Assembly: GCA_002633005.1 (NCBI GenBank)
Contig: NMRA01000207.1
Span: 578,828-642,827, forward strand
Direction of reading: 5' to 3'
DNA: 64,000 nt
Source: Phoronis australis
Lineage: Eukaryota; Animalia; Phoronida
Every line of letters starts with the position of its first letter. The first letter of the stretch is position 1. The notes below the pieces were generated by a model, which was not told the origin of the DNA, searched no databases, and worked only from the letters and a program-made list of their open reading frames with translations. Below, one piece after another: positions 20,357 through 53,094 of this stretch. The position numbers were made by a program, and so were the translations under genes.

Positions 20357-21990
20357 CTATAGATCTTTACTTACCCTCTTCTTCTCTCCTGTTTCATCTG
20401 AACCCTTCGTTTTGTCTGGATTCGTTTTCCTCGCCGACATGCTAAGTCTAGAAAAAGTTGCTGAACGTGTTTGCTTCCGGTCTGCCTGCATCGAAGATAT
20501 TTTGCGGTTTTGCTGTTCGGACTGCACAGTTTGCAATGGAGACGCAGAAACAGTTTGCGAATCGGTCTGTGCGAACTTGTCTCCACCAGAAGCATTTACT
20601 CGCCTCCCCCACCTCCGTCTCTTTTCGATGTGCGCCTTCTCTTTGTGTATCCTTTGCCTAGTTAGACTGTCCACAGAAGAGTCTGACGATCCGGATGAAG
20701 GCGTGCACACTGAATTGTCAGTCTCGTACAGTAGAATGTCTTTTTTAACTCCTTCAAGATTGTCTTGGACAACAACACGTTGCCGTTTTCTGTCGGTGGG
20801 TTTCGGCAGAACCACGGTCATCGTCATGCAGGCGTCCGTTACCGCCCTCGCCCACCTATAGAAATAGGCGACACCAGCGTACACTCGACTCAACTCCTTC
20901 CTGCCATGAATGTGCAGAATTTCTAGACATCGCGCTGCAATCTCTGGGTGCAACTTGGAAAGTTTGAAATTTTTGATTTTGTCAAACAGCTGTGCGCCCT
21001 CCTTCCGGTGCACGTTGAACAGCTTCTTCAGGTAGGACCAGTCCCTCGTCAGGGTTTCAACTTCTCCGAGAACCAACATGGTCGAAACCAACACGTCTTC
21101 CACCACGATCGGCGGATTGGTGTACTCTTGGATCTGTACCAGCATATGTTTGTCCATCTCCAGGATTTTTTTCTCTATCTCCTTGATCTTGTTCCAGGCG
21201 ATGATCATGTCTTTTCCTATTACGATTTCTAACCAGAGGTGATCCGTGTACTTGTCATTACTGGCCTTACGCACTGCCCGCTCTAGCCCCTTGACATTGC
21301 CGTGTAAGCACTCTGATAGAATGATATTCTTGAGCTCTAGCGCCCCGAGGTTGACACCTGTCTGTCCTACGACTTTGTCGTCGATCAGGTGAGCTTTGAC
21401 AAATCCCGTGTATTTTTCTAGTGCTTTCTTGATGTCGTTGACAACAAGAGATTTGTTGGCACGGATAAGCTCAGTTATAAGCACACTTTGCTGGGTCAGT
21501 TGTTCAGGGGTTAAATCGGCTTTAGCGTTCTCTGTTTCTGTACTCGGAGATGTTTCATGAGACTTGACGGAAACTGCTAGTTCGCCGCTCGAAGACTCTT
21601 GTTTAATGTTCATCTCGCTGGCAGCCGCACTGACTATCGTTGGACCCACATTTTCTAAATTTTGCAAGTGACCAGATGTTGGCTTTAAGAGGTCGTCTTT
21701 GGTCAGCGGTTGACCTACCAAACTGTTGCGACGTTCTTCGGGAGATACGGGTTGGTTGCCCTGATGTTCGGTCGCAATGCTGCTTCTCAAACTTTGTTGC
21801 ATTGTGTCTATTATGTCTTTTTGCAGCAACTCGGCGTCGTCGATTTGCTGTACATTCTTCTTGTCGGATTCACGCACCCTCTTCTTCCACCGATGGTACG
21901 CTAAGTATCCGAGGAGAGTACTAACGACGACTAATGCCATGGATCCACCTACTATTGCGTACAGCATCGTCTCGTCTGCAGTGAGGACGC
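20357..21990 (-). CDS. Gene A terminal exon: TM helix, linker, helical region and dynein-MTBD-like domain
   Basis: 547-aa ORF. TM LYAIVGGSMALVVVSTLLGYLAY is followed by basic HRWKKR. Phase-1 acceptor at 21990 (tttcaag|) or 21975 (ctgcag|). QIQEYTNPPIVVEDVLVSTMLVLGE...DW...KIKNF...LHPEIAAR...FYRWARAV at ~20840-21166. Paralogous to 38075-39777 and 49975-51422. Confidence 0.85.
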
Positions 21991-22489
21991 CTTGAAACAA
22001 AGTTGTCTTGCTATATGTTTTCAGACTTTGGTATATATTATGTGTCGTTTCAAATTACATTTGCACGCATGTATCCGAGTTCTCGTAATGAAATACGAAC
22101 AAGGAAATTCATGCGTGAGTTTGACCTGCAGGCAAAGTTAGGCAGGCCTGAACAGCAATAAGAATGCAGTCGGCCTAATTGTCTTTTTAACGTGAAGCAC
22201 CAGAAATGCGCAGACCACATGGTTGGACCATTATGCACACTGGGCACGTAAACAGTAAAAACAGTGTAAACTGGCCACCACAGTGGAAGTTGGGGCTTCA
22301 GTCGAATTCTTTTCCATGCCGATTCAGACCATGGGCGGCGTACCATAGGGGAGACTGGGAGATTAAAATCCCAACTTATTTCAGTGCTGCGCCTCTTATG
22401 CAGACATGTGCCAACCTTGGTTTCATTTCACATGACTTTTGATAAAAGTGGTTTGCTGTCCCTGCCACTTTAATATAAAAACATCTATT

Positions 22490-22509
22490 CACACACACAC
22501 TCACACACA

Positions 22510-22570
<61 letters not shown>

Positions 22571-22590
22571 ACACTTGCACGCACGCACAC
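22490..22590. repeat. (CA)n microsatellite in a gene A intron
   Basis: Direct inspection. Confidence 0.95.
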
Positions 22591-23370
22591 TCAATGCATA
22601 ATAAGTGAAAATGTAACAATTTTTTTCTGTATGAACACATGATCGCGAGCGGCCATTCCGTCTCCATGGAGGTCCATACTCAGTACCCCCGTTAAACCGT
22701 GAGCTAGGCATCAACTCGTCTCCCGTGTACAGCTATTACTTTTAGAGCACGAGCGCTTCGGGCACTTCTGTCGCTGACGAAAGACGATTGTCTTAAAAGA
22801 CCGAAATCAGTCTAAGCTAACCCCGAAAGCTAGTCTACGGAGTAGTCTTAAGATTAGAATTTTGAACTAAATGACCAAGATTTAGTTACATTATCACTGT
22901 AAATTGTTTAGGAACGAATTTCCTTGATACGTTTTCACAATCTAATGTGCCTAAACAATATCAACCAGAACACCGTCTGCTTCCGATTCGAGAACCAGCC
23001 ACAGAGACAATGCTGGGCGACTTACCGGCTCATGCAAAATAATATTTTCTACGTATACCGATGAAGGTCTTCTCAAGCAATGCTGACCTTTATCAAAAAC
23101 CGACTGAATTTGTGTTTAAGTTAGACCGAAGATCAAAATCCGGCTTTGCGTTTATGCAAATGTTTTGTAAAATTCAATCTCCGGTCTTAACTGCCGGCAT
23201 TTGGTTTTAACTTAGACAAACGTTAGGTCTTTAGGCTCAAGTCAGTTTTCACGAAACGGGCCCCAGGAACCAACTTATCGTTTTACACTCTACAACAGAA
23301 GCCATAAAAGCGCACGTTTCTTGTTTCAAACTGCATATTGTCATGTACCGGCTCCCTTTAACACATTTAC

Positions 23371-23694
23371 CTGAGACTAAGAGCAGCACAACACCCTCCA
23401 TGTTTAATTCCGAACGTTTGGTGTTCGTGGCCATACAGGTTATCGACTTTTCACTGTCCGAACGCGACGCAGTGTACGAAAGCACGCTGGAAAATCCTCC
23501 AGTGTTTCTAACCACTGCGCTTTCCAACACATTTTGTTTCTCATTCAATTTGTGGTGCCACGATATGGAAGTTCCCGGATGTGCATTAAACACAGAGCAT
23601 TTCATGCTGTATCGCTTTCCGCTGGTTGTCAGTATGACACCGTCTTCATTAGTCTCCACCTCTAGCGCTTGAACGCTCAGCTGAAGGGGCCCGT
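23371..23694 (-). CDS. Gene A exon: second Ig-like domain (C2/C1-like)
   Basis: Acceptor tttttcatag| and donor cag|gtaaat; 324 bp, phase 1-1. MKCSVFNAHPGTSISW...SVLSYTASRSDSEKSITCMATN shows the Ig C...W...D....C pattern. Confidence 0.85.
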
Positions 23695-24349
23695 CTATGA
23701 AAAAATAAGACGTCAAGGTCACTACAATCATGTACTTTTTGTCAAAAACAAAATTTTCGTTGGCGTATTTACTCTTCCATCAACATCATTGCTGTTATTA
23801 TACAGTAAATCACCCGAAATTTCCCCGACTACCATATTGCTTCGGCAGCAGAATCTGAGCAGCCGTCATGACAAGCTCATTCTGAGACCGTTACTGCTGC
23901 AGATCAGAGTCATTAAATGATGATCTTTTTACTGAACGATGGCGCTCAAAATGAAATGTTTAAGAGGTTGAAAAAGCATAACTGTTTGAGGTCTCTGTTT
24001 TCTCTGTTTTGTTTTGAAAATTGAGTACACGGTACAGTATTTTTAGTTGCTCACATTTCAAATCCACCTGAGACGAGCAAAATGAAGAGGGATTTGTCTT
24101 TTCCTTTTTACCCAAGACATCCAATGGCAAATCATGGTGTCCCAATACGTGATTGTCCTTGATCAAGTGCCTTTGGGCAGCTTTTCGAGAAAGATCTTGT
24201 CTGAAATGGATGCGGGGAGCGTTTCTTGATCGGTTAGGACAAGTCACAATATGAGTCCTGATAGAGACAATAGCCAACTATGCTTTTTGGCCTAGCCACT
24301 CGTGATTCAATGAAATTTCAAGGGTTCCTAACATGAAATACAAACGTAC

Positions 24350-24601
24350 ACGCAATTTGTATTTTGTATTGGGCCCTTTTCGTGTCTTGTCCATCCTGTA
24401 CTGTGCATGTAATTGTCTCCCCATGTAACTCAATTCTAGCTGTATCGTTGAATACCGGCCCTCTTATTTCTTCGCTTTTGGTTGTCGATGTCCACGTGAA
24501 CAACACGTTGGATTGCGGTTGGCCAGTTGGTTGACATAGACATATGATAGGCTGTCCCATAGCAAACCATGTGTGTTCCGTGCAGTTCAACTGGACGCCA
24601 T
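24350..24601 (-). CDS. Gene A exon: first Ig-like domain
   Basis: Acceptor attttag| and donor |gtacgt; 252 bp, phase 1-1. CLCQPTGQP...FTW...HGETITCTV. Splicing to the next exon creates the Ig-linker IAYGP. Confidence 0.8.
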
Positions 24602-24760
24602 CTAAAATATGTCACGTGCGCTTGTTATTTACTACTTTACCAAATGTGGTTTGACGTATCAATTTTGCGACACTCCTCTCACTTAAACAGCATTTCGCCA
24701 TGTTTATCAAGAGCGTAACTCGAAGGAAGCCGTTTATTCCCATAAAATCGGTCTTTTTAC

Positions 24761-24830
24761 CGTGACAGAACTCCACTGTTAACCAACTAGTCACAAGTAA
24801 TGCGTACGTACGCCTTGTCCGAATGAGCAA
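24761..24830 (-). CDS. Gene A candidate leader/signal-peptide exon (5' boundary unresolved)
   Basis: RRTYALLVTSWLTVEFCH followed by phase-1 donor cacg|gtaaaa. No in-frame ATG before an upstream stop, and a repeat begins at ~24834. Confidence 0.45.
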
Positions 24831-24833
24831 TTT

Positions 24834-24960
24834 TAGGGTTGGCCAACCACAATAAATTATGAAGCGTTTTCTCGAGTCGCTGACTGTTTCGATGTTCTTG
24901 CTAGTAATGGTAACAGATTTGTATCACGGAAAAGAATGGTTAGAAATCGATTTTATAACA
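24834..24960 (+). repeat. Transposon-end-like repeat; second copy at ~31252-31375
   Basis: tagggttggccaacc..aat....gaagc.ttttct.gagtcgctga...gatg....gct.gtaa.gg is shared between the two positions. Confidence 0.7.
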
Positions 24961-25199
24961 AAAGTTAAATTCAATTTTCATTTTCGGCCAGCTAAGGAGA
25001 GAGATATGCGGCTTTAATAGGTGATGTATGCTGAAACACAGAATGTTTCCGTTCTTGATTTTCTTTATTTTATCCATGTTTAATTGGATAAAAAGGACTT
25101 TTTTAAAATAAAGAGTTAAAGTTCTTAAAAAATCACAAACGTGATCACAAGACGACCTACTTGTAAATTTTGCGAATTTTGAAGATTAGAAATTCTTAA

Positions 25200-26638
25200 A
25201 GGAGATTGTCACCCGGTTTAATTCGTCTTTTTAACCGTCTTAATCGGTCTATATCCACATCGCTTCTTATACGGTCGACCTCACCTTGCCGTGAGGTGTC
25301 GCGTTAACCTGTGAGGAAGGTGAGAAACGACGCAGCGACATCAGTGGTTCATCTGCCGAGTGAAAGCCACTATATTGCGACGCATCGTTCCCGCTTGTCC
25401 GAACTATGAAGCTGTGAAGAAAGCGGGTGTATCGTTTTTTCGACTTCCTCGAGAGCCCGAAATGCTTAGGAAGTGGCTCGCGATAGTGAAGAATGAAAAG
25501 TACGCTCTTAATAGGAAGTATAAGGCCGTGAAACACCTTCGTGTCTTTGGCCGGCATTTCGTCAACAGTGATTTCTCTGACGAACTCCAGCTTATCAAAG
25601 AACTGTCCATGCGTTCTGCTGCCTGTGCATGTTCACGGCGCCTCTCTAGTATTTCTTGATCTTGATCGGTGTATTCCGGTGAGCTCTCTTAGTCGCCAGG
25701 CGAGTGCCATGTAGACGTTTATTATTCTGCGTTCTGTTTCAAAATGAATTATTCTTACCCTAACCTATGCTGAAACAAAATCTGTCTCATTAGATACAAT
25801 TTGTAATGCCTTTGAAGTATTTGTGAGTGCAAATGTTTTGAGAAGCCAGTTGGGGGAATCTTTATTTAGATATACAAATACATTATTCTAATCATTGTAT
25901 CCTTTTCCCTGGCGGTTCTGTGGAAGGGGAACCTGACTTCACGGCCCCCAACAAGTAAGTAGAATTTCAGTTTCGTGGCTTATTCACCTAAATAATTACG
26001 TGTACATTATTTCTTTGGCTCACTATTATGGGCTTTTCGTAACTGGATGTTTAGTTTCCAAATTAAGCTGGTTTATGTTCATGATGTCCAGTCCCGGCGG
26101 CCGCGACGGGCCTGAACGGGTCCCGAGCCACTGGCGGGGAGTAACAAACGTTTTGTGTGTTTAGAACCGAAAAAATCGCAAGTCTAAAAGTACAACACAC
26201 AGCTACGTTCCCTCTCTGTATTTCACGGAAGAATGATTCGAATTTATCACCAAACAGACCCAAACTCCAGCGATCGACCATGGTAAATTGGCCAGCGAAC
26301 TCTGTAAGCTAAGGTGCGTTCAACTACCTATAAATCCCTAACAGTGAAATAAAAGAACACGTTTGTTCAAGAACTCGATGTATTTGTAAGGGGTTTACGT
26401 CGAATTTTGATGATGATTTATTGATGTAAAACGACGAATTCAAGCAATAAGTCGACACCAGTAAGCGCGTTGTGAACGGCTGAACATACTGCGTTCGAAC
26501 CGATTACATCATTGGTTAATTTCAACAACTCCGTCTACCGTTAGGTCTCAGGTAAAACAACTGAACTTGCTGTTATCGAGTGGAACTACTCTATCTAAAT
26601 TGACACAAAATAGGTTGTTTTTTGGGTGGCATTCTCCT
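25200..26638 (+). mobile_element. Non-autonomous Kolobok-type element with degenerate THAP remnant (ORF 25360-25659)
   Basis: TTAA|AGGAGATTGTCACCC ... GGGTGGCATTCTCCT|TCAA (imperfect TIR, degenerate TTAA TSD). VPACPNY...FFRLP......RKW...LRVFGRHF resembles the THAP at 54876 but has lost Cys ligands. Confidence 0.7.
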
Positions 26639-27176
26639 TCAAAGTATTTATTCAGACAGTGCTTTGCATTGCGCATGCGCATTGATTCCGAGCGTGCACT
26701 TTACTAAAGTACAATAGCTACCATGACAAGGGATCACGCAGACATTTCCCAATTTTGACTCACAATGGCTGAAAATTACCAAGTATTTTCTAAAGGCTTC
26801 TAGTCAGTAATGTACTTTTGGTTAATAAGTTAACCCGAAGTCGTCTCTTCGGCAAAACGTATTGCTACACTTGTGAACCCATGTGCATGCTAAGCTGCGG
26901 CCATATTCGGAATTAGGCGCTTGTTGATAGGCGAAACAGCTTTTAAAATGACATGAGTAAAACAAGATTTGCCTGTTACAAAACGTATTCAATTTAATAT
27001 TAACTTAACTATTCAAAAGTGGTAAAATTAGACCAATCAAATACAGCCAGCTCAAAACACATACACGCACACAAGGAATGTCCGTCAGTGTCTAAAACGA
27101 AACTTACATGGATGAGCATGCCCCAGAATGCGAAACACTTATCAGTAGATTTTTCGTAGTTGTAAGAACCCATTAT

Positions 27177-28614: not shown

Positions 28615-29229
28615 ATTGCGGGCATATGTAAGCTTATGTACCTTAAGAAAGGCTTACATTCAAATCAAGATTGCTTTCTCGCCCGCAGCTGGCCGCATAT
28701 AAGGTAAAACACTCAAAAACAGTTGATTTCCCATTTAAAAATAATTATTTTACAGTCAGAACAAAAAATAGTTACAACAATATAAAATTGTAATTGTTGA
28801 TGATGCGTGTGCAACCTAAATACATGTATGTGACTCGGCGTCCTACATTCCCATCTCAGCAGTGAGAGGTCGTGGTGCATGGGAGACCGACTACAAACTT
28901 TTAAGAACGGCCCTAGAATATGCTGCTGCGCGCACAGGCATTCTTTTTATTACATGCTGCGTTGCGTTCCCAATACCACACGAGTCTGGGACAACTCGCG
29001 CCTAGTACAAACGGTACATCGATTAATTAGTGCTGGCTGGCCACCTACCTATTTTTGACGACGCGGGCTCAAACAGCAGAATCGTAGCAAAGACTCGTAC
29101 CATCACGAGAAACACTGAAAAGAAATGACCACGTGTTGAGATTTCTCGAATGTCCAAGAGATTTCTGCTGCAGGTGAAGAGTCCTAGAAGACACTGCAGT
29201 CAGCAGTCCAGCTCTGGCTTTCCGACAAC

Positions 29230-29680: not shown

Positions 29681-32600
29681 CTTAAAAATACAATTTGTTC
29701 CTCGACTAATGAGACATGATTGATAAAAGTTCTATAATCACCCTTATTGCTTGCAAAAAAAAACAAAAATCCAACTAGGACTTTTCAAACAAAATCAGTT
29801 TCGTGACATTCCATACGTGGATAAGATGCAATTTCCATTACAAGAACAAGTCACAGACAACGCGTGCATGCGCCATTTCCGAATTCACAATGCATGGCCT
29901 GGCCTAGCCAGCCTGCTAGTTGCATGAAGACTATCGTCAAAGTACAACTAGGTAGCGACTGTGGGTTGAGCTCCGACGGACCACGAAATTGTACACAGCC
30001 TGGGAAGTTCTGCTCGTCACCTCGCCGTCAAACTTGTATCAACATGTAGAGCTAAAGACCGGCGGGAGTGCATGCAAAATCTGGGAGTCAACCGACGCTC
30101 ACCTTGCCCGTTGCAGTCGTTTAAGTGAAAAAAAAACAATGTAATAAACGCCATTTTCTTGCGTAATTATCCGCCGTTTGCAACAATGAAAAGTATGTCG
30201 TCTTTTTGAAAACAGTACACTTATGTCACGCGCCCCCGACATTTCCTAAATTCTTGCGACATCACTTGGGAGATGACATCTTCACAGCAGCAAAATTTGT
30301 TCTGAAATTCGGTTTGCTGGAATCAAAATACTAAAAACTTTTAATGAAGTGAAACCAGTTTCGATAATTTGTTGAAAACGCTGATTGAAGAATCGGCGAA
30401 AAAAGAAACTTGCCAATAGGTGACGCAATATTGCATGGCGCCGAAAGCCGACGTATGAGATCGCTCTACAACTTCAGCAGCAGAGTATCTAGTCAGTTTT
30501 CACCCACATCGGCGCAAAGCTGTATTTAGTATACAGCTTTATCCCATACACGCGTTGAATCAGTCGAGTGCAATACGGCCATGTAATGTGGTTCTCCTTA
30601 TTCACTCCCGCATTTCTTTAAGAGTGCCCTCTCACATGGACAGTTCAAAAGGTAGGTCAATGTTGACTCGATGTCGTAAGCCCGTTCGACCATAGTTTAA
30701 AGTAATACAGTTGCAGCAGTATAAATAGCACTCAACATGCAATCAGGCCATACACGTAACATCTGGTACAAAACTGTTAATTATATGACACTTGTGTCTC
30801 AGTTTTCAATTGCTAAATATTGTACCGTCTGCAACTCAGGCGGTAACTATATTTATTTAACTACTTTCAAATGTTACAAGTTCTATGCTTAATTACCGCT
30901 GTTTTCAACTTTCTTGTCTCTTTAAATAAGAAACCGTTACATTTAAAACTGTTTCTTCTACAAGAAAACTTATAACACAACGCGGAAGTATATACATATA
31001 TGATGTGATCCGCCATGGGAAAAGTCTGGTGAAGTACTTAAAAATCTGCCGAAAAAAATGAAAGAAACTTAGGAATTCGAAGCGTGTGGGATAAGTACAA
31101 AATGTAGCGAGAATAATGTATCTGGGGATATTACTTCATCTACGCCACTCTCGGTGCGCTTTGTGCACTTAGCCTTGGTACAAAGTTGTATACCAAGTAT
31201 TTTGACGACAGTCTTCATTCAGCTAGCTGGCTGGCTACTTTGTACTAAGTCTAGGGTTGGCCAACCCCAATTGCTACGAAGCATTTTCTTGAGTCGCTGA
31301 TGGTTTTGATGATTTTGCTGGTAACGGAAATAGAATCCTATCGTAGAAAGGAATATTGTGACACCGATTTTTTTAGAATAATCGGCCTAGTTCGAGTTTC
31401 GCTTTTACGTAATTGGCAGTACGAAATACAACTTTACGTTTCGAGTATAAGTCTTTCAGTCGAGTGCAGACCTGGTGGCAACAACTATAACCACTAAACA
31501 CATATTACGTGATGCTAACTTCTTTATAGATTATGAGACTAGAGAAGAGAAGACGAAATATGTGTTCAGCTTCAAGATTAGCAGGCTTGCTTTGTGAATG
31601 TACATGTAGAATTCATTTTGCGTGGCTTTAAAACAATATTCATTTGTATCGCACTGCAAAGAAACGAGTCAATTCGAAGTCTTGGCTTTCTTTCCATACA
31701 AACACACTAGATCTGGCTTCCAGCTAAGAAAGCAGACACTGGGGGTACTGTACATACCATTTTTTTTACGCCATGCATTTTGCATTTCCGTTCGTTTCCT
31801 TGAATGGTATAATCATCGTCAATACCTATACCATGTACTTCTCAGGCACGCAGTGAATGAAATGCCGCTTCTCTCGCATTTCACACACGTATGTCCACGT
31901 GCTTCCGTCACGAAATCGTGGTTTTCAAGCAAAAATTGTTTTTCTTCACTAACACTTAGAGATACCTTTCTTCAAAAGCAATCCTATCCTTTTAAAATAA
32001 ACCTTGTTTCGATTTCCTCTTATTAGATTTCCAGTTTCCTCTTTTTTTCTCTTGTTTGATCATTAGTTTGACTTTATTTGTGCAGAAATGCTTACTTTTA
32101 TTAAATTTTATAACACAAAAAATTATCAGACAAGCTTATATATTTGTGGAATTATACATCACCTGGAAAATTACCTCTTTTTTGTCATTTTTCGTTCCAA
32201 GCTCTGAACCTCAGCTTAGCGCAAACAATTGCTTTGGGTTTTGGTTTACCGCGACACTTTCTACATGGTGAGTAAGATAAAACTGATACTGGTATTACCA
32301 GTTTTAACTTAGATTTACTATTGGATGCTTTTCTTGATTCCTGATATTTTCTCACCCAAATGTCTGCGGTTTGTCTACAAGGTGGTCATAGAGAGGCAGA
32401 TATTAGTAGACACACTTTTGGCTGTCAAAGGTCACCATAAAGCTCCTGTGTAAATTATGTATACTTTGTTCAGTGATGTTTTACTGCTTAGACAATTCAT
32501 ATCCTGCATTTAGACATCTTGAATTGGAGAATGATGGTGTTGAGCATTACTGTTATTTTGAATGGCTGCCTTGTTGGTTAAGTAGTTTTGCTTGTAAGGT

Positions 32601-38074: not shown

Positions 38075-39777
38075 TCACTTGTCGCCAACCGAGTCGGACT
38101 GCGAGTAAGAAGACCGCCCACTCTCCACAACTTTTACATTATGACTGTGATGACTTGTGGCCCTTGCGTGTACCCTCGGTTTTATAGGTGTTTGGCTATC
38201 ATTCTCTTTAGCTACGACGTCATCAGCTTTAGGACGCAATGTTTCATTAATTCCAGGTAAAACTGTCATACGAGACATCCTTTTCCATTTCACGTCGTCT
38301 TCGGATTTCCCGCGTTCAATATCAGGGCGAGATATGCGGCCCAAAACCTGCTCAGTGATAGACTGCATGGACATCCTGGAGTTCTCTTCTTGCTCTCGTT
38401 TCTTCTCCTCGGCTAAAACAGAAGCTTTTTTCCTAGCTCCCATGATTTCCACCTGGACCCCGTCCTTCATACTTGTCAGAATGTGCTCCTGTCTCTCCCC
38501 CGTAGCTGGAAACGGTGCCAACATTTCCAGCTGCAGACGTGCTTTACACACAGCGCGGCCCCACTCTTGTAATTCTGCCGCGAGGTCGTACGCCTTTGTT
38601 AGCTCTCTCCGTTCAATATTGTCCAGTAAATTCAGAGCACGAACGGCAATTTCGGGGTGCAGCTTGTGCGGTTGAAAGTTCTCAAAGCGTTCGTCCAGCG
38701 GAGGAGTTTCTAATCCCTGAGCGATGCTGCACAACTTGTTCAGCTTCGCGGTGTCCTTCGTTGTTTTTTCAGATTCGCCTAGAATCAGCAACGTTGCCAC
38801 CATACAATCTCGAACTGTCTTTGATCGCCGGATGACATCCTTCAGCGGAGAGAAGAAAACCTTTTCGACACTCACTATCTTATTACAAGCCCTCTCAATT
38901 TTTCGCAGTATATACACCACTCTACTTGCATTCTTGAGTTCTTGTTGTAGTTTTCCATGTAGTTTTGCACCCTGTATCGTCTTAACTAGGATAAGAATTT
39001 TTGCCAGATTCAGATTGTCAACAGCTTTTGTTAAATCTTCGCTGAACCGGATAGTATTCAGTATCGCATTGGCCTCCTTTATGACATTGCACTCTAGCTC
39101 TGTCTTTTTACTAAGTGACTGGTAAAGAGTAAGGGCTTTTTCAATCTCCACGGCATTTCGTGATTCGTTGGCAAACAGTAAGTTAGTCATGAGGTGGTCA
39201 TGGTCTATGTCCAAGTCGCTGTCTCGGTGCACGACACCCGCAATATAGCCATCGGGAGCGGGAATAGCGGTTTCGGCGTCGGGCACTTCTTTTACCTTAT
39301 TCATACTCGCAGTTTCGTTTGGAATGTTGGAATTTCCTTCACTTGGCTCCAAATTTTCTTCACTGAACCGAGCCCGCCGCGAGGGTGATTCAAACTCCGA
39401 AATCATGGAAGGAGATTTCGAATTGTCTTGAATGGACCCGCCCTTGATGATTGACTTTAGCGGGAAACGCAAGTCACCCTGCAACGTGTCCGTAGAGCCC
39501 CGAAGGGTCTGTTCCGTTACTCGCCGTGCCTTATGACTACTTGATACTGACTTTTTAGTGTCTCGCCTTCGAGACATCGTACTTTTTCTAGACTTTGTTG
39601 AAACTTTTGTGTTGCTTTCTTCAGTCTTAGCCGTCCCCTCTTCGGGGATGCACGTTGATGCCACTTGTTTTTTCGTCCGTTTTAAATATATGACGACGCC
39701 GAGAGCAATACTGGCTATCAATATCGGAACACCAACACTGCCTACCACGATATACACTAGCAAGCCCACTTGTACTT
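38075..39777 (-). CDS. Gene B terminal exon: TM helix, linker, helical region and divergent dynein-MTBD-like domain
   Basis: 564-aa ORF; acceptor ttttgtattccag| phase 1. TM LLVYIVVGSVGVPILIASIALGVVIYL then KRTKK. VRDCMVATLLILGESE...ERFENF...LHPEIAVRAL...EWGRAV at ~38548-38880. Confidence 0.85.
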
Positions 39778-42348: not shown

Positions 42349-42474
42349 GTGGATTTTCAAGAAAACCGGAAGTCGAGGACCAATCAGGTGTCTCAACCAC
42401 GGGTTGAGTCGGCGGAACCCTTGAAGTTAGCCTAATCAAGTGCAGCCATTAACAATAATTAACAATGCACGTAC

Positions 42475-42660
42475 GAATTGAGCAACTGGGTGCGTTTGTC
42501 CACGAAAACAAATCAGTGATGCTGTCGTTGGTGCACTTAACATATGGCTTTCCTACAATCTTGTGGTTTTCATTGCACGCGAATGTTACGTAGAACAGGC
42601 CATCGTCGGATTTCACTTGGGTTGGTTTGCTGTTTGCTACTGTTGGAGACGGACCGCACA
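42475..42660 (-). CDS. Gene B exon: CCP/sushi domain
   Basis: Acceptor ctattccag| and donor |gtacgt; 186 bp, phase 1-1. CGPSPTVANS...VTFACNENHKIVG...VKC......W...PSC has the 4 Cys plus Trp of a CCP module. Confidence 0.85.
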
Positions 42661-45167: not shown

Positions 45168-45351
45168 ATCAAAACTCAGTCGAGCAGACAATCGGAAAGC
45201 TCTAATAGTAGATTACATTGGTCACGGCGTGTGGGAGTTTCCAGAGCTAGAGTTCTATGCCTTGTAATGGTCTGGCGTGATGTTGCGGTTTCGCGAGGTT
45301 CTCGCGTATACGTAACGCACGCCAGGCCTACAGTAGCAGGACAGTACTTAC

Positions 45352-45450
45352 GGGGATGTGTCCAAAAATTCTTCTCCTGCGTTCTCACAGACTGACAGAG
45401 CCGAATGCACACATATGCTGACAAGCTTCGCACAAGAAGACACAGACAGG
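45352..45450 (-). CDS. Gene B candidate signal-peptide exon 2
   Basis: Acceptor ttattccag| and consensus donor |gtaagt; 99 bp, phase 1-1. With ATGCGTG|gtaagt at 45704-45698 it gives MRACLCLLVRSLSAYVCIRLCQSVRTQEKNFWTHP, in frame with the CCP exon. Confidence 0.55.
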
Positions 45451-45697
45451 CTGGAATAAATTATGATCAGGCGAGTGAATATCAGTGTTTCGACACGATT
45501 TGCAAAGCAACGGTTCGCTGAGCAAACAAGAAACTAATAGGGAGCGTCGTTGGGTGAAATGGTCCGACAACCGTAAACATGTTGACCATAATATCAGACT
45601 TAATATCGAACAAGACGAGAACTGCATCGCGAATGTTGTAGGAGTTTCAAAGCCATTACATGTAAGTGTTCGTAATGGTGAAAAACTTGGCACTTAC

Positions 45698-45704
45698 CAC
45701 GCAT
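45698..45704 (-). CDS. Gene B candidate start-codon exon (coding part ATG CGT G)
   Basis: ATG followed 7 nt later by a perfect gtaagt donor in phase 1; nearby upstream out-of-frame ATGs exist. Confidence 0.45.
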
Positions 45705-47074
45705 TCTTACTATATGTCATTTGCTTGTTTAGTATGACGTCATTTTGACGTTTTGAAGCCAATCAAAAATACTAAAAAAATAAACACAATTGGGCCACAT
45801 TTGTGTAGTGCTGTAAATTACTATCCACTACGAAAGTTGTTAACTGGCTGTTATGGACCCGCTCAATCTCAATCTTCCTCAACTCCCAGGGAGCATACTG
45901 TAGAAAGGACCGACAAAAGTAAATACTTACGGCCAAATCACAATCAAGGTCCATATTCGAGAGTTGACTGCGTTACGGTCTAAAATAATTTTTTGGTTAC
46001 TTACCAAATGCCAACTGAATCTCATATGCAACGAGTTATTTAGTTTTGCAAATTAAAAAAGAATCATCAAATCGGACAATGTTTAGGAAATTTATGCATG
46101 TTTTTGTCTATGAATTTCATGCATTTTTAGCTTTACCAATTTAACCATTAGCCATTTTAAAAATTACGATTTTCAATTGTCAACCGTAGAAAAGAAATTT
46201 ATTTTATCAAGTAAGCAATTGCTTAGATATGAGTGGGAATAACTTGAGTCACTTTCAGAATCACTTAGATGAAGTTGTGAGAAATGGTAGGGTTCATCAT
46301 GGAACAGGCACTCGTTACGAAATTTGAAAATTCTTTGTTTCAACTATCTTATGAATTTTTGCATTATAGAAGTGGGCTGTGACCACAAGTTATAGTGCAC
46401 GTACCCTTTTATACAACTGTTATAGTTTAGGCCATGAAATTTTATTCGGTGGTTCTTGTGCAAAAATATTTTAGATTACATGGCACTTTAAAATAACCCA
46501 GCTTTTACAGTTACATAACAACCTTCATTTTTCACCAAAAGTGGCCACCGAATATGGAACTTGATTGTGATTTGCCCGTTACCAAAGATGCGAATTGAAC
46601 AAAACCGATTTGCGATTTTGATACACAAGGACGAAAGAATCAGACGCTCTTTCTGGAACCCGAGTCATGTGAAAACTTCTCATTGGACGTTGCCGTATGA
46701 GAGACAACTCCAGAGCTTCACAACATTCCTCCCCATCATATCTTTTGGCGTCTTCGGCGTCCAGCGTCATGAATTCCAGTAGAACCCCATCCCCAAGAGG
46801 ATACAATTATCACCGGGAGGTGAGATAATAAAACCCCGGGTATAAGCCCACAACCGCAAAAACAAAACAATGATGAACCATACACAAAAAATATGTATTC
46901 ATACCAGCTTACCTTAACGTATACCTGATCGTATACGTTCTCGAACCACACAATAAAATAACACATAAATAGAGAAATTGTATAACCTTTATATAAAAAA
47001 CTTGAAAATACTATGACCACAATAAACGCGAAATTCCTTTTTCCCTCAAATCCCCAAATATAAAAAGTCGCTTA

Positions 47075-47370
47075 CAGATACGTAAAAGTCTCCCCGTTCA
47101 AGTGCGTACTATGTAAGATCCGGTAGATGGTTGTCTCCCGCAATTCTGCAACGCGAGCAACCACGATGCCCAACCTATGGGGATGTCTGGTCATATGGGG
47201 TTGGCTCCGGATATGCGACGGTGTCTGGTACCCTCTGACACAGCGCCACTTATACTGCAAACTTTCGTTTAGCACTGTGATAGAGTGTACATGTCTGTCT
47301 CAATCAACATCCTGTCCAAGGGATCTGCGCTATGGCTTCTGCATGCTCCAATGACGTTTCCATTGATGTA
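47075..47370 (-). pseudogene. TatD-like DNase C-terminal remnant
   Basis: EAIAQIP/(frameshift)LDRMLIETD matches the TatD IPLDRLLxETD motif. HPHRLGIVVARVAELRETTIYRILHSTHLNG matches the TatD terminal helices. Confidence 0.6.
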
Positions 47371-47490
47371 CTACCGATCGAAAAGTAGGACTGGTGTTCT
47401 AGAAACTTTCGACACACTCACGCACTTCAGACACCCCCACCCCCTGTCCCCGGAAAAAGAGTGTAGCTGAATCCCAGTTTCGCGCGGCAA

Positions 47491-48645
47491 TAGCGGATTT
47501 GCAGCGCAGACGAACTACGCATTGCGCATGTGCGAGTTACTTCCTTCGCGAAGGCTCATGGGATAGCTTGTGGTCAGGCATGTCTTGAGCAGGCTGGATA
47601 GTGTGTGCATTTGGAGTGATTTGCAAACTAAAAACCATGTTTCATTTTTTGCTTTATAATACCAAGCAAGGCCTCTCTCTCGTTTGTAAACACAGCGTAG
47701 CTATGATCAGTGACCGTGTGACCGAGAGCACGACTGTCGCCGTGTTCAGTATTGGGGTTATCGGCGTTGATTTCGAAATCTCCTCCTATTTCAGACAAGT
47801 TGAGAGTTCTTGGGTTGCTTAACTTTTGTAGCTTTCGTCGTGGATATGNGAGGAAGTTACGTGAAATTACGCATGTTGACGAATAAAAAGTCCAAGGGAC
47901 ACACATCTTACAAGTTTCACCCGATACCTTCTCATGCTATTTTACAAGTGTCGCGCGCTAGCGTCACGCGCTTCGCTCAGTCTAACCTTGCGCCTAACTC
48001 ACGGGATTCAGTTGACATGCTTTGTAGTTATCGCGCACGCGGTGATAAAATTAATGGCAACCAAAAAAGTGGAGTTGTAGTTCTTCGCCAAAGTCAACTT
48101 AATTGTCACAACTAAGCTTCATTAAAGATATGTATAGAAGTAGAAAGGACCAATGATGAAAGTAAGCGTTTTTTAAATGATAGTTTTAAGTGTAGAGTGT
48201 ATTTTTGACGAGGTGAAAACTCGAAATCGGTAACCCAAATCCGGTCACGGCCCGTTTAAAATACACTGGAGTAACGAAATGAGTACAGAAAGCGAATGGA
48301 AGTATTGTAGCCCCTACATGGCCAACCGAGGGGCTACGTGTTGCCTACTAGATGGCCCCGCATTCGTTTGAATGCGCTAAATTTCCCCTTACTCCCAGGT
48401 CTCCTAATGTTGTTTATCCATTTTTCACAAAGTTCTTGGTTTGCAGGGAACACATACAAACTCAGATTTTTATCTCTCTTGTTGTTTTTGAAGCAGCCAG
48501 GAACACAAGTGAATCCGCCGTAAGTTTTCTTCGCGCTCATACCGCGTATTATGCTTGTTACTATGGCCGCTTTCGGAATCCTGACCACAGCACCCACAAT
48601 GCACCATTTTAACTAATTTCAATATGGCGTCGCTGCAAATCCGCT
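47491..48645 (-). mobile_element. Non-autonomous ISL2EU-like element with partial THAP ORF (48334-48597)
   Basis: Inverted ends (GCAAT)AGCGGATTTGCAGCG / CGCTGCAAATCCGCT(ATTGC), compatible with an AT TSD. TCVPGCFKNNKRDKNLSLYVFP.....EKWINNIRR is the N-terminal half of a THAP domain. Confidence 0.7.
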
Positions 48646-48669
48646 ATTGCTTACGAGCAATTTCTAAGA

Positions 48670-49385
48670 CTCGCTGGTTCCCTACGTGCTGCTAGGTTGT
48701 CGGTAGCTAGCAATCAATTAACTTTCCTCGGGAAATTTATTTACACCGGCGTTTCTGATTGGCTACTCGAATTCTCAACAGGCAGCGCTTTACGCAAACA
48801 AACTGGCATGACTGATGTACTGAAATGTAAATGTGGTCTGTTGGCAGTGGCGGATTTAGAGGGGGCCAGGGGGGCCGTGCCCCCAAAATATCCCAGATTC
48901 CATTTGGCAGTTTGGGGATGGGAATGCCTGAGGGGCAAAATCCTGGCTAATAGCCTGCCCTGGCCCCCCGCCTACCTCAAAATTCTGGATCCGCCCATAG
49001 TTGGGTAGACAAATCGGTGCTTAAAACTGATGTTCAGGAAATGTGAATCCTAGAAATTGTAGTTGCGCCTTTTCGTAGTGTATTTTTCTACTATCGATGA
49101 CTGTTTACGATACTGTCCTGTATTCATACAGTATGAATAACACACCATGAAATCGGCCAGATATGTGTTTATTGTACATGTATGTGCTTCAAGCACGCGG
49201 CTATTAAACATCACTGCAGAAACGAAATAATTGTTGCAAAGCCACTTGCATGACAAGGCTAAAAATAGTTCACACTCCGCCATTTTTTCATGTTTTCATT
49301 GTAAAGCTAACCAATGACTGCTGATGTTACATCATCCAATGCTTAAGCGCGTGCCACTGCGTGATACCTGCGTGCTGGCTAGGCC
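48670..49385 (+). mobile_element. Copy of the 15867-16474 element, interrupted by a MITE at 48845-48999
   Basis: Collinear identity with 15867-16460 on both sides of the insertion. Confidence 0.85.
48845..48999. mobile_element. G/C-run MITE with 5-bp TSD (hAT5-like)
   Basis: gttgg|CAGTGGCGGATT...GATCCGCCCATA|gttgg; the empty site is seen in the 15867 copy. Confidence 0.75.
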
Positions 49386-49974
49386 CATGCCCTTTGCGGT
49401 GCACCAGGCGTGCTCAGGTCACAAGACCGGATCCTGCACTGCACCAATCACCTGCATGATTATATGTTTAAGACTTAAAATGGTCAAAAGAAAATCGCTA
49501 GGCATTGCCAAAACTGACCCAGCCCCTGACATTAACTTGTTGCATACATTAACAAAAGTTTTAAATTTGTGTGCCGCAGTATCTGAGATTCACTCACTCA
49601 TCCACTGCCCACTACTGCTCATGCGCAAGCGCATCTCCACCACCCAAATTGTGCTTTGGTGGCCAACTAATAAGCATTTCAATCACGACCATACGTTTTC
49701 CTCGAAATGCAGAAGGAAACTAAATGTATACTTGTGTTAGTTTTGCTGTGATGGTGCTCTGATCAAGAGCACTATCCACACACGTGCAATATAAGCTGTA
49801 AATGTAGTGCATAAGTTCTTATCGTGTTTAGTAAGTGCCAGTTAGTGTTGACCAATGAAACGCTCCGGTATGTTGGTTTCAGTTTTTATTTCTTTTATAC
49901 TCTTCTAGGCTCGGTACGCCGGGAAAGAGATCAATGCCAAAGAATACGTGTCACATAAAAGCCCTTTTCTAGTC

Positions 49975-51422
49975 TCAAACGACATCTAATGTGGATTTTT
50001 TTACCACTGCATCTGCACTTTGTTTACTCGTGTCTTGCCTACTGGACATTTCAGTTTCATTTAAATTTTGATTACTCTTGTCTTGTCCATGAATCGATGT
50101 AGAGTCAGCCACGCTGACGTATTTGTCATCATCATTCAACAGCGAATCAGAAAAAGAATCCGACTCCCCTTCAGTCGTCTCATCCAAATGCCTGTCTTCC
50201 TTTATGATGCGTAGATCAGCGTCCACGCGAATATCTGTGATATTTCTCTCTTGGCGATCTCCTGTTGCTTCTTTGGATGTGAAGTGAACCAGCGAGATCG
50301 CACACTTGCTGACGTTCTTCGCCCAGGAGTATAAAACTCCCACACCTTTACTCAGTTTGTCAATTCCCTTCCTTCTGTAAGGGGATAGGCGTGTGAGAGC
50401 TCTCTGTGCAACCTCGGGATGCAGATTTTTAACGTGAAAGTCTTTAATTCGCGTGTACAAACCTAGATATTGCCGCGCACCGACCGTATCAGACATGAAC
50501 TGGCAAGTGGTCCAGTCGGATGACAAGTGTTCGGGCTCCCCCAGGACCAAAAGTACTGCCATCATAACGTCGTGTACTACAGGCGGCGGGGGATTGTACT
50601 CGCGCACTTGAGAGAGGATTGCTCTGTCCATTCGCAGTACGAGTTTTGTTGATTTCTTCGTCCTTTTCAGTGCTTGGGAAACCCTTTTGGCTACTCTCAG
50701 TTCAAGCCACAACCTTTCTTTCAAACCTCTCGTTTTCACCGACCGAATCACGTGGTTAATAATTGACAGGTCGCCCTCTCTGATCGCCATGTACAAATCT
50801 GTCCTGCACTTGCCAACGAACAGGAATTCTCTTGACTGTCTGATTACGTTCTGGTCGATCTCGAACACTACGCCTATACTCTCGTACGCAGCGAGACACC
50901 TTTGAATTTCGACAACATCCATAGAAGAGTTCGCATCCAAGAGTGATTTCAACAGGACAAGATAGGTCTGCTGTAGTTGATACTGTTGTTCCGTTTTCTC
51001 GTCCTCCGTCAAATCGCCTGCTTTCCGTGCTTGTGCAATCTGCTCCGCCAATGTGATCTGGGGAATATCATCGCTAGGTCTGAGCGAGCTTCTTCCGTGT
51101 GCGGGAGATCTATTTGAGGAGAGCGTGCGAGTCACTGGTGCCTCTTCACACATTTTCTTGAATTCGGAGACGTCTTTTTCATAGTCCCTGTTTGCATCCA
51201 AGATAAGGTCAAGCGACGCTGTTTCTTCATCTTCCACGGTTGAATGGTTTTCTCTTAGTTTTTTGACGGCCTGCGTTGGTAAGTCATCCGTCAGGACTGA
51301 GCCTACCTGCAAGCTTGGTTCCGTTTTTTGCGGCTTCATGTACCACACGCCCATCAGGACAACAAGAACCCCAACAAGAATGAAAGATGATGCTACCGCT
51401 ACAGGGACGATAGCCACGTGAT
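49975..51422 (-). CDS. Gene C terminal exon: TM helix, linker, helical region and dynein-MTBD-like domain
   Basis: 480-aa ORF; acceptor ttatctttgcag| phase 1. TM IVPVAVASSFILVGVLVVLMGVWY. LSQVREYNPPPPVVHDVMMAVLLVLGEPE...DW...RIKDF...LHPEVAQRAL...IDKLSKGVGVLYSWAKNV at ~50305-50640. Confidence 0.88.
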
Positions 51423-51867
51423 CTGCAAAGATAAGGAAATGCTGTTACCGCAGTGATCTTTGCTTCTCAGACAAATTGAGTCAAGCTGGACGTGTAATAT
51501 CTATGATTGGATGTTCGCGATCTGAATTGTTGGAGTTATTTCAACATCTAGCTTTCTGTGTGACCGATCAACATCATGATAATTATCAGCCATTTTCAAT
51601 AGGAAGGATAAAGCACGACATTGTCCGGTGAACGTTGTTCGCTATGTGTCGCGTCAGACGCTTGTTGAACTGTTGAAACTAATACACATATGCAATGAAA
51701 ATAATTGTTCATGTCAACTGCAAATTACATTGTAGCCAAGTTAGTAGCCATGCACAAGTTCCACACTATCTTAAAGTGGCTCATTTTTCGAAGCCAACTT
51801 CCTCTGGTACAGTACAATTTCAACACGTTTAAGATACGTTCAATCATGAATTCTAACCCATAAGTAC

Positions 51868-52146
51868 CATCACATAACGGTATGTCGCAATATGCCCACC
51901 GCTTATAGCCGGTTGTGAAGCACCACGGCCCCTTCTTTTTGCGGCTGGGGTTCCTGCAATAGTTGGATACGTTTTCCATGTGCCGATCTGGGAAATGCGA
52001 GGCGTCCGTGTACTTATGTGCGTGAGGCATGGGTACTGACCACATTTGACAGGTGAATGGTAGCTTCCCCAAGAAAACCCTGTTCTGCTTGCCGATATAG
52101 TTGTATCCAATAACATCTGATTTGCAGTCTACGTTGCGCGTGTAGC
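51868..52146 (-). CDS. Gene C exon: kringle domain
   Basis: Acceptor tctctgtttag| and donor |gtactt; 279 bp, phase 1-1. DC....GYNYIG...CQMW...PHAH...NYCRNP....GPWCFTT...RWAYCDIPLC has all six kringle Cys and the NYCRNP signature. Confidence 0.92.
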
Positions 52147-53040
52147 CTAAACAGAGATAGAACGGGGCTGCTGTGGTACAAATGAAGATCAAAATTATGT
52201 TATGACAGCTTTACAAATGGAACTCTAAATACACAAGCTTTGTATGTTATAAGAGCTGGTCGTCGCCCGCCGGTGACAATGTTCACCGAGCTGCCAGTCC
52301 CATATTTGTTACTGATGTCGGGTGCCTTAGTGTGCATGCCCTATTCACCAAGTGACGATCGATCGCGATCCACCTCACTCAAAACTGACAAGCAACAGAA
52401 GGATGTCACAGAATCGAAATTTCGTGAGACCGCTCAAAACATCTCGGTAAAGGGCGAATTTAAATATGCCTGAGTAAGGGAAGCAGAAATGAAGGACGCT
52501 AATTATTAAATGCCGATATATCATATCCTTTGATATGCCATATGGTGACATGTGAAAATAATTCTATCCAGATATCAGAAATTGAAGATATGACTGTGCA
52601 GGTGTGGACTTTTCAAGTAAACGATATGCGTGTACTGGCTCACAAAGGAGATGTATTCACAGTGTCCCGGGAAGTCATTCAACGGAAAACCAACTCTGGT
52701 TCATAGAATTTATCGTGTCATTAAAATCTTCTAGAACACGAGATGCGTTCCCGGACTATAGCGAACCTTCTTCAGTGCAATTTTGGCGAAAGTATCACAC
52801 AAGGTCTCGCGTATGAAAGGGAAGTGTTCCGCGAGTATATCTAGAAATTTGAGCTGTTACCAGCTTAGACTAAGAACATGGCCGCCACTGAAGTGATTGG
52901 AATGCGATCGAGGCTGAAATGTTCAATGATACCAAACTAACGGTTTCTCGCGCCATATCCCCGATTTCTCACCGCAAGTATATAATATCCTGCCTGCGGG
53001 ATCCTCTCTCTCTCGAACCAGAACACTCGTAATTACTCAC

Positions 53041-53094
53041 CTTCTGTGTCGTATGACTGGATTGTTATCCACAGCACCATCAGTTGGCCTGCAA
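53041..53094 (-). CDS. Gene C candidate leader exon
   Basis: Perfect donor gaag|gtgagt in phase 1; acceptors at 53094 or 53088, both phase 1. Encodes (VA)GQLMVLWITIQSYDTE with an in-frame ATG at 53080. Confidence 0.5.

What the first reader, a model, noticed from the sequence alone, without database searches (positions are those of the whole stretch)
20357..53094. Tandem family of three single-pass receptors whose cytoplasmic tail carries a dynein microtubule-binding-domain (MTBD)-like module
Seen: three co-oriented minus-strand terminal exons (20357-21990, 38075-39777, 49975-51422) each encode TM + basic stop-transfer + Ser/charged linker + a shared ~250-aa block (L..AN.S....I..xL..Y ... LG E.E...D ... 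F....LHPE(I/V)A.R.L..L ... W.(R/K).V ... T..RQ) + disordered tail. Established: the dynein heavy-chain stalk MTBD has the pattern [helix]-E(I/L)(K/R)S(Y/L)xxPP-[helix V..VMEAV..LLG]-W...-..L..F...-..ASKA...L..WV. Gene C (SQVREYNPPPPVVHDVMMAVLLVLGE..DW..RIKDF..DKLSKGVGVLYSWAKNV) and gene A (QIQEYTNPP..DW..KIKNF..FYRWARAV) follow it with matching spacing, and no AAA+ motor is present. Inference: these may be motor-less receptors that tether the membrane, or extracellular ligands, directly to microtubules (for example in cilia or sperm flagella), with the preceding helices mimicking the stalk coiled coil that sets MTBD affinity. I recall similar stand-alone MTBD-like C-termini on some soluble invertebrate proteins but know of no described transmembrane-receptor family with them.
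Basis: partly seen in the sequence, partly recalled or inferred. Interest (0 to 1): 0.92.

Follow-up and report, generated by a model that had tools for sequence, protein, structure and literature searches.

The report
Receptors carrying a motorless dynein foot
Three neighbouring, spliced and expressed animal genes encode predicted cell-surface proteins whose inner tails carry a relative of the microtubule-gripping foot of the motor dynein but no motor, which would likely let them tether the cell membrane loosely to microtubules.

Summary
Three minus-strand paralogues are spliced (GT-AG) and co-expressed in 2 of 3 raw RNA runs. They join Ig-Ig (A), sushi (B) or kringle (C) exons to a terminal exon encoding a TM helix, a linker, a shared ~260-aa block and a tail. 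The block is a dynein stalk-tip/MTBD homologue: a family profile hits the yeast MTBD at E 1e-11, and the AlphaFold model (pLDDT 92) matches mouse MTBD at Z 16.8. There is no AAA ring and no long stalk. The block belongs to an invertebrate family (519 representatives), mostly the C-terminus of soluble KY-like transglutaminase-fold proteins. In 9 of the 150 best hits it also follows TM helices (amphioxus CLCA/CD20-like, tunicate, rotifer); the trio's membrane fusion looks separate from these (AU p 0.03). Microtubule binding is untested and the residues are mixed. The trio lost the H1 glutamate that locks dynein onto alpha-tubulin (kept in 154 of 154 relatives) but has two basic contacts that most relatives lack. 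Best reading (0.45): weak, ATP-independent membrane-to-microtubule tethers. Main rival (0.40): the fold is repurposed for another partner. Ten paper searches found no description of such receptors.

The parts
31758..31845 (-). Gene A exon 1 (5' end near 31845; ATG at 31785)
   Evidence: Molecule ends pile up at 31843-31845; joint 29114/31758 has 104+91 reads; frame
29049..29114 (-). Gene A exon 2 (66 nt), hydrophobic core of a predicted signal peptide; skipped in frame in a minor isoform
   Evidence: Joint 24601/29049 has 93+61 reads; skip joint 24601/31758 has 17+9. Signal peptide judged by eye, no predictor run
24350..24601 (-). Gene A exon 3, Ig-like domain 1 (weak call); skipped in a minor isoform
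   Evidence: Joint 23694/24350 has 95+69 reads, skip 23694/29049 has 10+10. No Pfam hit; best PDB hits are Ig domains, MDGA1 E 0.008
23371..23694 (-). Gene A exon 4, C2-set Ig domain
   Evidence: PF08205 E 5e-8; RNA
20357..21990 (-). Gene A terminal coding exon: TM (21896-21967), linker, block, tail; the spliced protein is 767 aa
20720..21499 (-). Gene A shared block (hairpin repeats, CC1-like helix, MTBD fold at about 20810-21166, RQ helix)
45352..45450 (-). Gene B 99-nt exon, hydrophobic and signal-like. It has no in-frame ATG, so a first exon lies further up (unresolved; one candidate has ATG 45704 and a consensus donor after 45698)
   Evidence: Joint 42660/45352 has 34+18 reads; candidates; acceptor at 45450 read from the sequence
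42475..42660 (-). Gene B sushi/CCP exon
   Evidence: PF00084 E 7e-4, 20.4 bits against a cutoff of 20.7; joints
38075..39777 (-). Gene B terminal coding exon: TM (39683-39763), linker, block (38420-39208; MTBD fold at about 38519-38878), tail
   Evidence: stranded depth 20-30 in X1/X2 and 0 in X3
53041..53094 (-). Gene C short upstream exon; the true start is unresolved
   Evidence: Joint 52145/53040 (cut +1) has 57+40 reads; acceptor at 53094 inferred from the sequence only
51868..52146 (-). Gene C kringle exon
   Evidence: PF00051 E 5e-17; joints
49975..51422 (-). Gene C terminal coding exon: TM (51340-51417), linker, block, tail
   Evidence: stranded depth 36-72 in X1/X2 and 0 in X3
50191..50973 (-). 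Gene C shared block: two helical hairpins (residues 1-88), CC1-like helix (89-113), MTBD fold (about 50281-50640), C-terminal RQ helix (238-260)
   Evidence: AlphaFold pLDDT 92.1, pTM 0.84; VIA Z 16.8, rmsd 3.5 over 145 residues to 3err

Best explanation
These are three spliced, co-expressed tandem genes for predicted type I membrane proteins whose tails hold a motor-less homologue of the dynein microtubule-binding domain, which likely acts as a weak, ATP-independent tether from the membrane to microtubules. Shown: gene structure and expression, the different ectodomain exons (Ig-Ig, sushi, kringle), one TM helix each, and homology and predicted fold of the block. Inferred from trees and shared motifs: the block was captured once, in the trio's ancestor, from the C-terminus of a lophotrochozoan KY-like transglutaminase-fold protein, and the gene then triplicated and swapped ectodomain exons (all introns are phase 1). 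Inferred mechanism: the ectodomain binds an extracellular or neighbouring-cell partner. The disordered 127-163 aa linker holds the rigid module away from the membrane. Basic residues on H1 and H6 would grip acidic tubulin. Because the H1 Glu that drives dynein's weak-to-strong switch is gone and no motor drives a registry shift, binding would be low-affinity or diffusive and would strengthen only when receptors cluster.
For: Homology: the 64-row profile's 40 PDB rows at E<0.001 are all dynein heavy chains or MTBD constructs (by name, or by their 4,000+ aa length for four oddly named rows). The best is yeast MTBD, E 1.2e-11, across the whole domain. The three window rows alone already rank six MTBD constructs first, E 0.011-0.054. 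Fold: Z 16.8, 16.7, 14.7, 13.7 and 11.7 to five dynein MTBD/stalk chains; the best unrelated row is at 8.2. Residues: at the yeast K3117 and R3201 positions (salt bridges to tubulin in PMC7042235) all three have K/R, against 29 of 152 and 16 of 125 homologue rows, and keep it across branches of 1.1-1.8 changes per site. C and B also keep the R3124 site. The family keeps the E3122 site in 154 of 154 rows and K/R at R3124 in 124 of 154, which suggests tubulin binding was ancestral. Weak, diffusive binding without the Glu-Arg bridge is described for dynein (PMC4298687, passages). Precedent: chain 9ya2_L (Z 9.9, 7% identity) is by length and residue range probably Toxoplasma ICMAP2, whose globular domain sits on a microtubule every 8 nm (PMC12819142 passages; the chain identity is my inference). 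Topology: kringle, sushi and Ig exons splice upstream of the TM and basic residues follow it.
Against: The trio alone lacks the otherwise invariant H1 Glu (Q, Q, P). Only 3, 2 and 3 of 6 salt-bridge sites are kept, no better than the family median of 3 (121 rows). Both H3 sites are lost in all three, and gene B also loses the H3 Trp and the PP turn. The family's basic GK-x-G loop (66 of 122 rows) is gone. Net charge of the MTBD span is +6/+4/+1 against a family mean of +2.9, so it is not strongly basic. Other motor-less look-alikes sit in a radial-spoke head (7jrj_I, 7jtk_C) and a sperm axonemal chain (9fqr_Xl), where the fold need not touch tubulin. Pfam MT does not hit the window proteins, and Foldseek gave no match at E<=0.001 (best 0.0033).
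Confidence: 0.45

Rival explanations
1. The MTBD fold is real but repurposed. In these receptors it is a protein-docking domain for a non-tubulin partner (cortical scaffold, septin or actin-linked network, or signalling adaptor), and the proteins are adhesion or scaffold receptors that do not touch microtubules directly.
For: Loss of the invariant H1 Glu, both H3 sites and the family loop; long branches. Motor-less look-alikes occur in radial-spoke entries. The conserved core of the trio is mostly hydrophobic or structural (LGE, LHPE, W). A review passage links hillarin to septins (PMC3081291); that hillarin belongs to the donor family is my recall and was not tested.
Against: K/R is kept in all three at two dynein tubulin-contact sites where most relatives have Q or D/E. 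The family-wide invariance of the H1 Glu fits a tubulin-binding ancestor.
Confidence: 0.4
2. The domain binds microtubules tightly and is regulated. Ligand binding or clustering, or the hairpin repeats and RQ helix, shift the short CC1/CC2 registry and switch affinity as in dynein.
For: A CC1-like helix and the start of CC2 flank the domain in a confident model.
Against: The Glu needed for the strong state in dynein is absent (PMC4298687). A disordered linker of 127-163 aa separates TM and module and could not pass on a helix shift. The CC2 match stops at the kink. The Pro at W+16 seen in A and B is not a family feature (absent from the 8 commonest residues in 97 rows).
Confidence: 0.08
3. The domain is a decaying passenger, or the genes are assembly or annotation artefacts or dynein fragments.
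For: Long branches; gene B is the most degenerate.
Against: Open frames of 489-574 aa, canonical splicing with tens of reads per joint and stranded co-expression. The fold core is kept at 27-29% identity between paralogues. No AAA domain lies in the spliced models, and the nearest relatives are KY-like proteins, not dyneins.
Confidence: 0.07

Closest known systems
Dynein heavy-chain stalk tip / MTBD (Pfam PF12777 MT; PDB 3err, 6kio, 5ayh, 8i3j)
   Same: Homologous sequence over H1-H6 (profile E 1.2e-11); same predicted fold with a CC1-like helix (Z 16.8, rmsd 3.5, 145 residues); basic residues at the K3117 and R3201 sites.
   Different: No AAA+ ring, linker or long stalk; capped by helical hairpin repeats; H1 Glu and H3 contacts lost; placed in the cytoplasmic tail of a membrane protein.
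C-terminal domain of invertebrate KY-like / transglutaminase-like proteins (Transglut_core PF01841 + Ig-like_KY PF23265; e.g. Owenia CAH1802903.1 named 'Kyphoscoliosis peptidase', Helobdella XP_009018530.1, Patella, Gigantopelta)
   Same: The nearest sequence relatives (profile E down to 2e-54). The subgroup nearest the trio shares HPE and the P-x-x-x-x-RQ helix.
   Different: Those proteins are soluble, keep the H1 Glu and mostly the GK-x-G loop; the trio has no transglutaminase or KY Ig domain. I found no paper describing this C-terminal domain as dynein-like.
Other uncharacterised TM fusions of the same block: Branchiostoma CLCA-like (XP_035689228.1, XP_078700756.1) and CD20-like/4TM (XP_066272931.1, CAH1240778.1), Styela VWA-TM (XP_077966891.1), Clavelina (XP_076813484.1), Adineta multi-TM (CAF0857834.1), two unnamed ENA proteins (P0039, P0113)
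   Same: TM helix or helices upstream of the block (9 of 150 hits).
   Different: Different ectodomains; they keep the H1 Glu; they fall in another part of the tree (one clade with the trio rejected, AU p 0.031 careful and 0.015 quick).
Motor-less MTBD look-alikes in solved structures: 9ya2_L (probably Toxoplasma ICMAP2), 9fqr_Xl (bovine sperm; EFCAB5 by my recall), 7jrj_I/7jtk_C (Chlamydomonas radial spoke; RSP2 by my recall)
   Same: A similar fold without a motor (Z 9.9, 10.0 and 7.4).
   Different: 7-20% identity and not among the 60 of 63 rows shown by the family profile; soluble cytoskeletal proteins. The passages I read do not call them dynein-like.

Membership tests
Dynein heavy chain (motor) | AAA+ ring and motor domain in the same chain | tested here: not met
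   Spliced models are 767 aa, >=661 aa and >=592 aa and end at stops; no AAA Pfam hit
Dynein heavy chain (motor) | Long antiparallel CC1/CC2 stalk | tested here: not met
   The model has a 25-residue CC1-like helix; the compact match to 3err spans 3261-3408 only; upstream are hairpin repeats
Dynein MTBD fold | Sequence homology across H1-H6 | tested here: met
   Family profile E 1.2e-11; trio-only profile E 0.011; sponge member P0043 hits dynein directly at E 1.8e-5
Dynein MTBD fold | Six-helix MTBD structure | tested here: met
   Predicted for gene C only: pLDDT 92.1; Z 16.8-11.7 to five dynein chains; Foldseek best E 0.0033
Dynein MTBD fold | H1 Glu that pairs with alpha-tubulin R402 (yeast E3122) | tested here: not met
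   Q in C and A, P in B; E in 154 of 154 homologue rows
Dynein MTBD fold | Basic tubulin contacts on H1, H3 and H6 (K3117, R3124, R3152, R3159, R3201) | tested here: inconclusive
   3, 2 and 3 of these 5 kept in C, A and B; both H3 sites lost; the H3 loop mapping is loose
Dynein MTBD fold | Binds microtubules | not testable with these tools
   Needs an assay; the complex predictor was not available
Pfam MT (PF12777) | Score above the curated cutoff of 24 bits | tested here: not met
   No hit on the window proteins; homologue P0043 passes at 26 bits, P0135 and P0096 fall below
KY-like transglutaminase-fold proteins | Transglut_core and Ig-like_KY domains | tested here: not met
   None in the window ORFs or exons
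KY-like transglutaminase-fold proteins | C-terminal hairpin + MTBD-like block | tested here: met
   A profile without the window rows scores the trio 88-167 bits
Type I single-pass membrane proteins | One TM helix with a basic cytoplasmic flank and extracellular-type domains spliced upstream | tested here: met
   Hydropathy, RNA joints, Pfam; no dedicated TM predictor was run
Type I single-pass membrane proteins | Cleavable signal peptide | tested here: inconclusive
   Signal-like N-terminus in A by eye; first exons of B and C unresolved; no SignalP available

The most novel reading that the evidence does not exclude
Invertebrates have repeatedly bolted a motor-less dynein foot onto membrane proteins (Ig, sushi and kringle receptors here; CLCA-, CD20- and VWA-type proteins elsewhere), creating an undescribed class of receptors that couple extracellular partners straight to the dynein site on microtubules with no adaptor and no ATP. 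This trio would be a version retuned for sliding, avidity-gated attachment.
Probability: 0.35. Interest if true: 0.9.

Novelty: new variant of a known kind. Interest (0 to 1): 0.72.

Why it matters
The dynein MTBD is usually treated as a part found only in the motor. Here it is a mobile domain in hundreds of invertebrate proteins, from sponges to amphioxus, and in this locus it forms the tail of surface receptors. If it binds tubulin, these are direct receptor-to-microtubule anchors that could compete with dynein for its site. They would also be natural experiments on what the H1 glutamate and the stalk registry contribute, a long-standing question in dynein mechanics that one co-sedimentation series could test. 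If it does not bind, the domain still gives a first structural handle on the unannotated C-terminus of KY-like proteins.

Tried and rejected
No whole genome was held, so synteny, further paralogues and dN/dS were not tested. Single-sequence searches missed the dynein link: Pfam and phmmer of gene C against PDB. The word-indexed homologue search found nothing in 3 of 3 runs although HMMER found 519, so those blanks are uninformative. The first AlphaFold model (3 rows, pLDDT 67.8) was superseded. The AU test (p 1.6e-39) is rejected as confounded: it held unlabelled fragments that are sisters of TM rows; searches use only window, TM and KY rows (36 of 117). One origin for the nine other TM rows is not rejected (p 0.355). 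Three TM flags (P0074, P0087, P0106) were dropped as hydrophobic stretches in KY-type proteins, leaving 9 of 12. The W+16 proline as a dynein relic was rejected (the count used a wrong column). The index listed no RNA holder; the raw runs came by species label. X4 contigs show no depth on the B and C terminal exons, which proves nothing. ESM Atlas for the C block gave unnamed, mostly mollusc clusters at 0.93 and 0.90 and an MT-stalk cluster at 0.78, a lead only; the A block search did not complete. The N-terminal hairpins have no fold match above Z about 8 and were not folded alone. The two 'MTBD-like' papers concern TTLL11, not dynein. Two radial-spoke papers could not be fetched, so the RSP2 and EFCAB5 labels remain recalled. 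The scan's earlier findings returned nothing in 3 of 3 look-ups.


Full report
Observation. Stop-to-stop ORFs of 565, 574 and 489 aa lie on the minus strand at 20357-22054, 38075-39799 and 49975-51444. Each has one hydrophobic stretch near its start, then a Ser/charged linker of 138, 163 and 127 aa, a shared block and a tail. The blocks align with 38 invariant columns; pairwise blastp gives E 2e-23 to 3e-34.

Gene structure and expression. Three raw RNA runs with the same species label were laid on 37600-55000 (with one contig run as well) and on 22600-37500; about 18-19% of each run was read. X1 and X2 show strand-specific depth on the B (20-30) and C (36-72) terminal exons and on the A Ig exons (about 25-70). 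X3 shows none on any of them. Joints: A 29114/31758, 24601/29049, 23694/24350, plus loose ends that match the A terminal exon; B 42660/45352, 39777/42475; C 52145/53040, 51422/51868. All eight introns are GT-AG and phase 1. In one search, 125 weaker joints were not shown, so the first exons of B and C stay unresolved. Gene A is complete (767 aa) with a signal-like N-terminus. Ectodomains: C2-set Ig (E 5e-8) plus a weaker Ig-like exon in A, sushi (E 7e-4, just under cutoff) in B, kringle (E 5e-17) in C. These modules upstream of the TM and the basic residues after it place the block in the cytoplasm; this is inference, as no topology predictor was available.

The block is a dynein MTBD homologue. 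Single sequences show nothing. A profile of the three blocks ranks six dynein MTBD constructs first among 8 PDB hits (E 0.011-0.054). Against 1.84 billion representatives it finds 519 proteins at E<=0.001 and 167 at <=1e-10. A 64-row alignment (the trio plus 61 short hits) hits yeast MTBD at E 1.2e-11 across the whole domain, and its 40 rows under E 0.001 are all dyneins. AlphaFold of the C block with that alignment gives pLDDT 92.1 and pTM 0.84. VIA-align places five dynein MTBD/stalk chains on top (3err Z 16.8, rmsd 3.5, 145 residues, model 78-232 on 3261-3408), and the first unrelated row is at 8.2. Foldseek also ranks dyneins first but without a match at E<=0.001. The first 88 residues are two copies of a helical hairpin: 109 first-hairpin segments score a median 9.7 bits on a second-hairpin profile, against 0.1 for shuffles. 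There is no long stalk and no motor.

Where it comes from. Of the 150 best hits, the 78 longer ones were scanned with Pfam. Fifty carry Ig-like_KY, often with Transglut_core, with the block at the C-terminus; none shows an AAA domain; three hit PF12777, one above cutoff. Named members come from annelids, molluscs, a brachiopod, a flatworm, a rotifer, tunicates, amphioxus and two sponges (30 clusters looked up). A hydropathy scan flagged 12 of 150 with a TM upstream of the block; 9 remained after dropping three KY-type false flags. They include CLCA-like and CD20-like amphioxus proteins and tunicate and rotifer proteins. In trees the trio is one clade (99/97). It sits beside annelid and mollusc KY-type rows that share HPE and the RQ helix, outside a supported group (98/91) that holds all nine other TM rows. 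A single clade of all 12 is rejected at p 0.031 (careful, 36 rows) and 0.015 (quick). Long branches and the midpoint root temper this, so 'at least two separate membrane fusions' is likely, not proven.

Does it bind tubulin? Nishida et al. (PMC7042235; passages read) list six salt bridges for yeast MTBD: E3122, K3117, R3124, R3152, R3159 and R3201. Uchimura et al. (PMC4298687; abstract and passages) make the Glu-Arg pair the switch from diffusive to strong binding. Lacey et al. (PMC6629372; passages) name H1, H3 and H6 as the interface. I mapped these sites through the HMMER alignment. The Glu is invariant in 154 of 154 homologue rows but is Q, Q and P in the trio. The K3117 and R3201 sites are K/R in all three, against 29 of 152 and 16 of 125 rows. 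Both H3 sites are lost. Totals are 3, 2 and 3 of 6, with a family median of 3. The evidence therefore cuts both ways. A weak electrostatic grip without the locking step fits it best; a repurposed surface fits nearly as well. The complex predictor was not available, so nothing structural bears on binding.

Precedents. The fold search also returns three non-dynein chains. 9ya2_L, in the Toxoplasma intraconoidal microtubule structure, has 162 modelled residues in the range 1208-1457. That fits ICMAP2 (1,678 aa, about 10% resolved, bound every 8 nm; PMC12819142, passages); the assignment is mine. 9fqr_Xl and 7jrj_I/7jtk_C I recall as EFCAB5 and RSP2, unverified; the passages of PMC11779644 and PMC12423330 and the searched supplements of the former (5 files; one scanned PDF unread) do not mention an MTBD-like domain.

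Literature. Ten full-text searches gave no paper describing a motor-less dynein MTBD in receptors or in KY-like proteins. I saw listings for all of them and passages of PMC3495828, PMC13406575, PMC3081291 and PMC12366701, none on point. The library lacks most subscription journals, and automatic annotation already tags a few family members with PF12777, so the homology is latent in databases.

Verdict. The feature is real: expressed membrane-protein genes with a dynein-MTBD-homologous cytoplasmic domain, part of a broader and apparently undescribed invertebrate domain family. They are not dyneins and not KY proteins. They may work like a passive dynein foot (0.45) or use the fold for another partner (0.40). 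New variant of a known kind; interest 0.72.

Noticed in passing
window 17197-19170 +: Single 657-aa ORF of the DUF229 family (PF02995 E 5e-108, sulfatase-like), convergent with gene A.
   Followed up: partly
window 24601/31758 and 23694/29049: Gene A has two in-frame exon-skip isoforms: one drops the 66-nt signal-core exon (17+9 reads against 93+61), the other drops Ig domain 1 (10+10 against 95+69).
   Followed up: partly
window 20357-53094: All three genes are on in runs X1 and X2 and off in X3 of the same study, which suggests shared tissue-specific control.
   Followed up: partly
window 54106-54885 -, 25324-25659 +, 28334-28507 -, 48334-48612 -: A THAP-domain ORF (E 3e-15) and THAP-like remnants judged by eye; repeat-derived, with heavy unstranded RNA cross-mapping at the two.
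   Followed up: no
window 213-1211 +: 332-aa ORF ending in a TCR/CXC cysteine-rich domain (E 3e-5); looks transposon-derived (my impression).
   Followed up: no
window 9636-9781: Perfect 12-bp tandem repeat, 12.2 copies.
   Followed up: no
window 46480-46600: Minus-strand read excess in X1/X2 only (105 against 18 reads at 46559) inside a repeat remnant; may be a 5' exon of gene B.
   Followed up: partly
P0043, P0088 (database proteins): Sponge members (Oscarella, Sycon) are soluble, Sycon's with EF-hands; P0043 hits dynein directly (E 1.8e-5), so the motor-less domain is at least as old as animals.
   Followed up: partly
P0001, P0096, P0111, P0048 (database proteins): The block occurs three times in a Pinctada KY protein, after a CARD-like domain in two KY proteins, and in a Styela VWA protein without a flagged TM.
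   Followed up: no
PDB 9ya2_L: The probable Toxoplasma ICMAP2 domain resembles the dynein MTBD fold (Z 9.9-10.1 to our models); the passages I read do not remark on it.
   Followed up: partly
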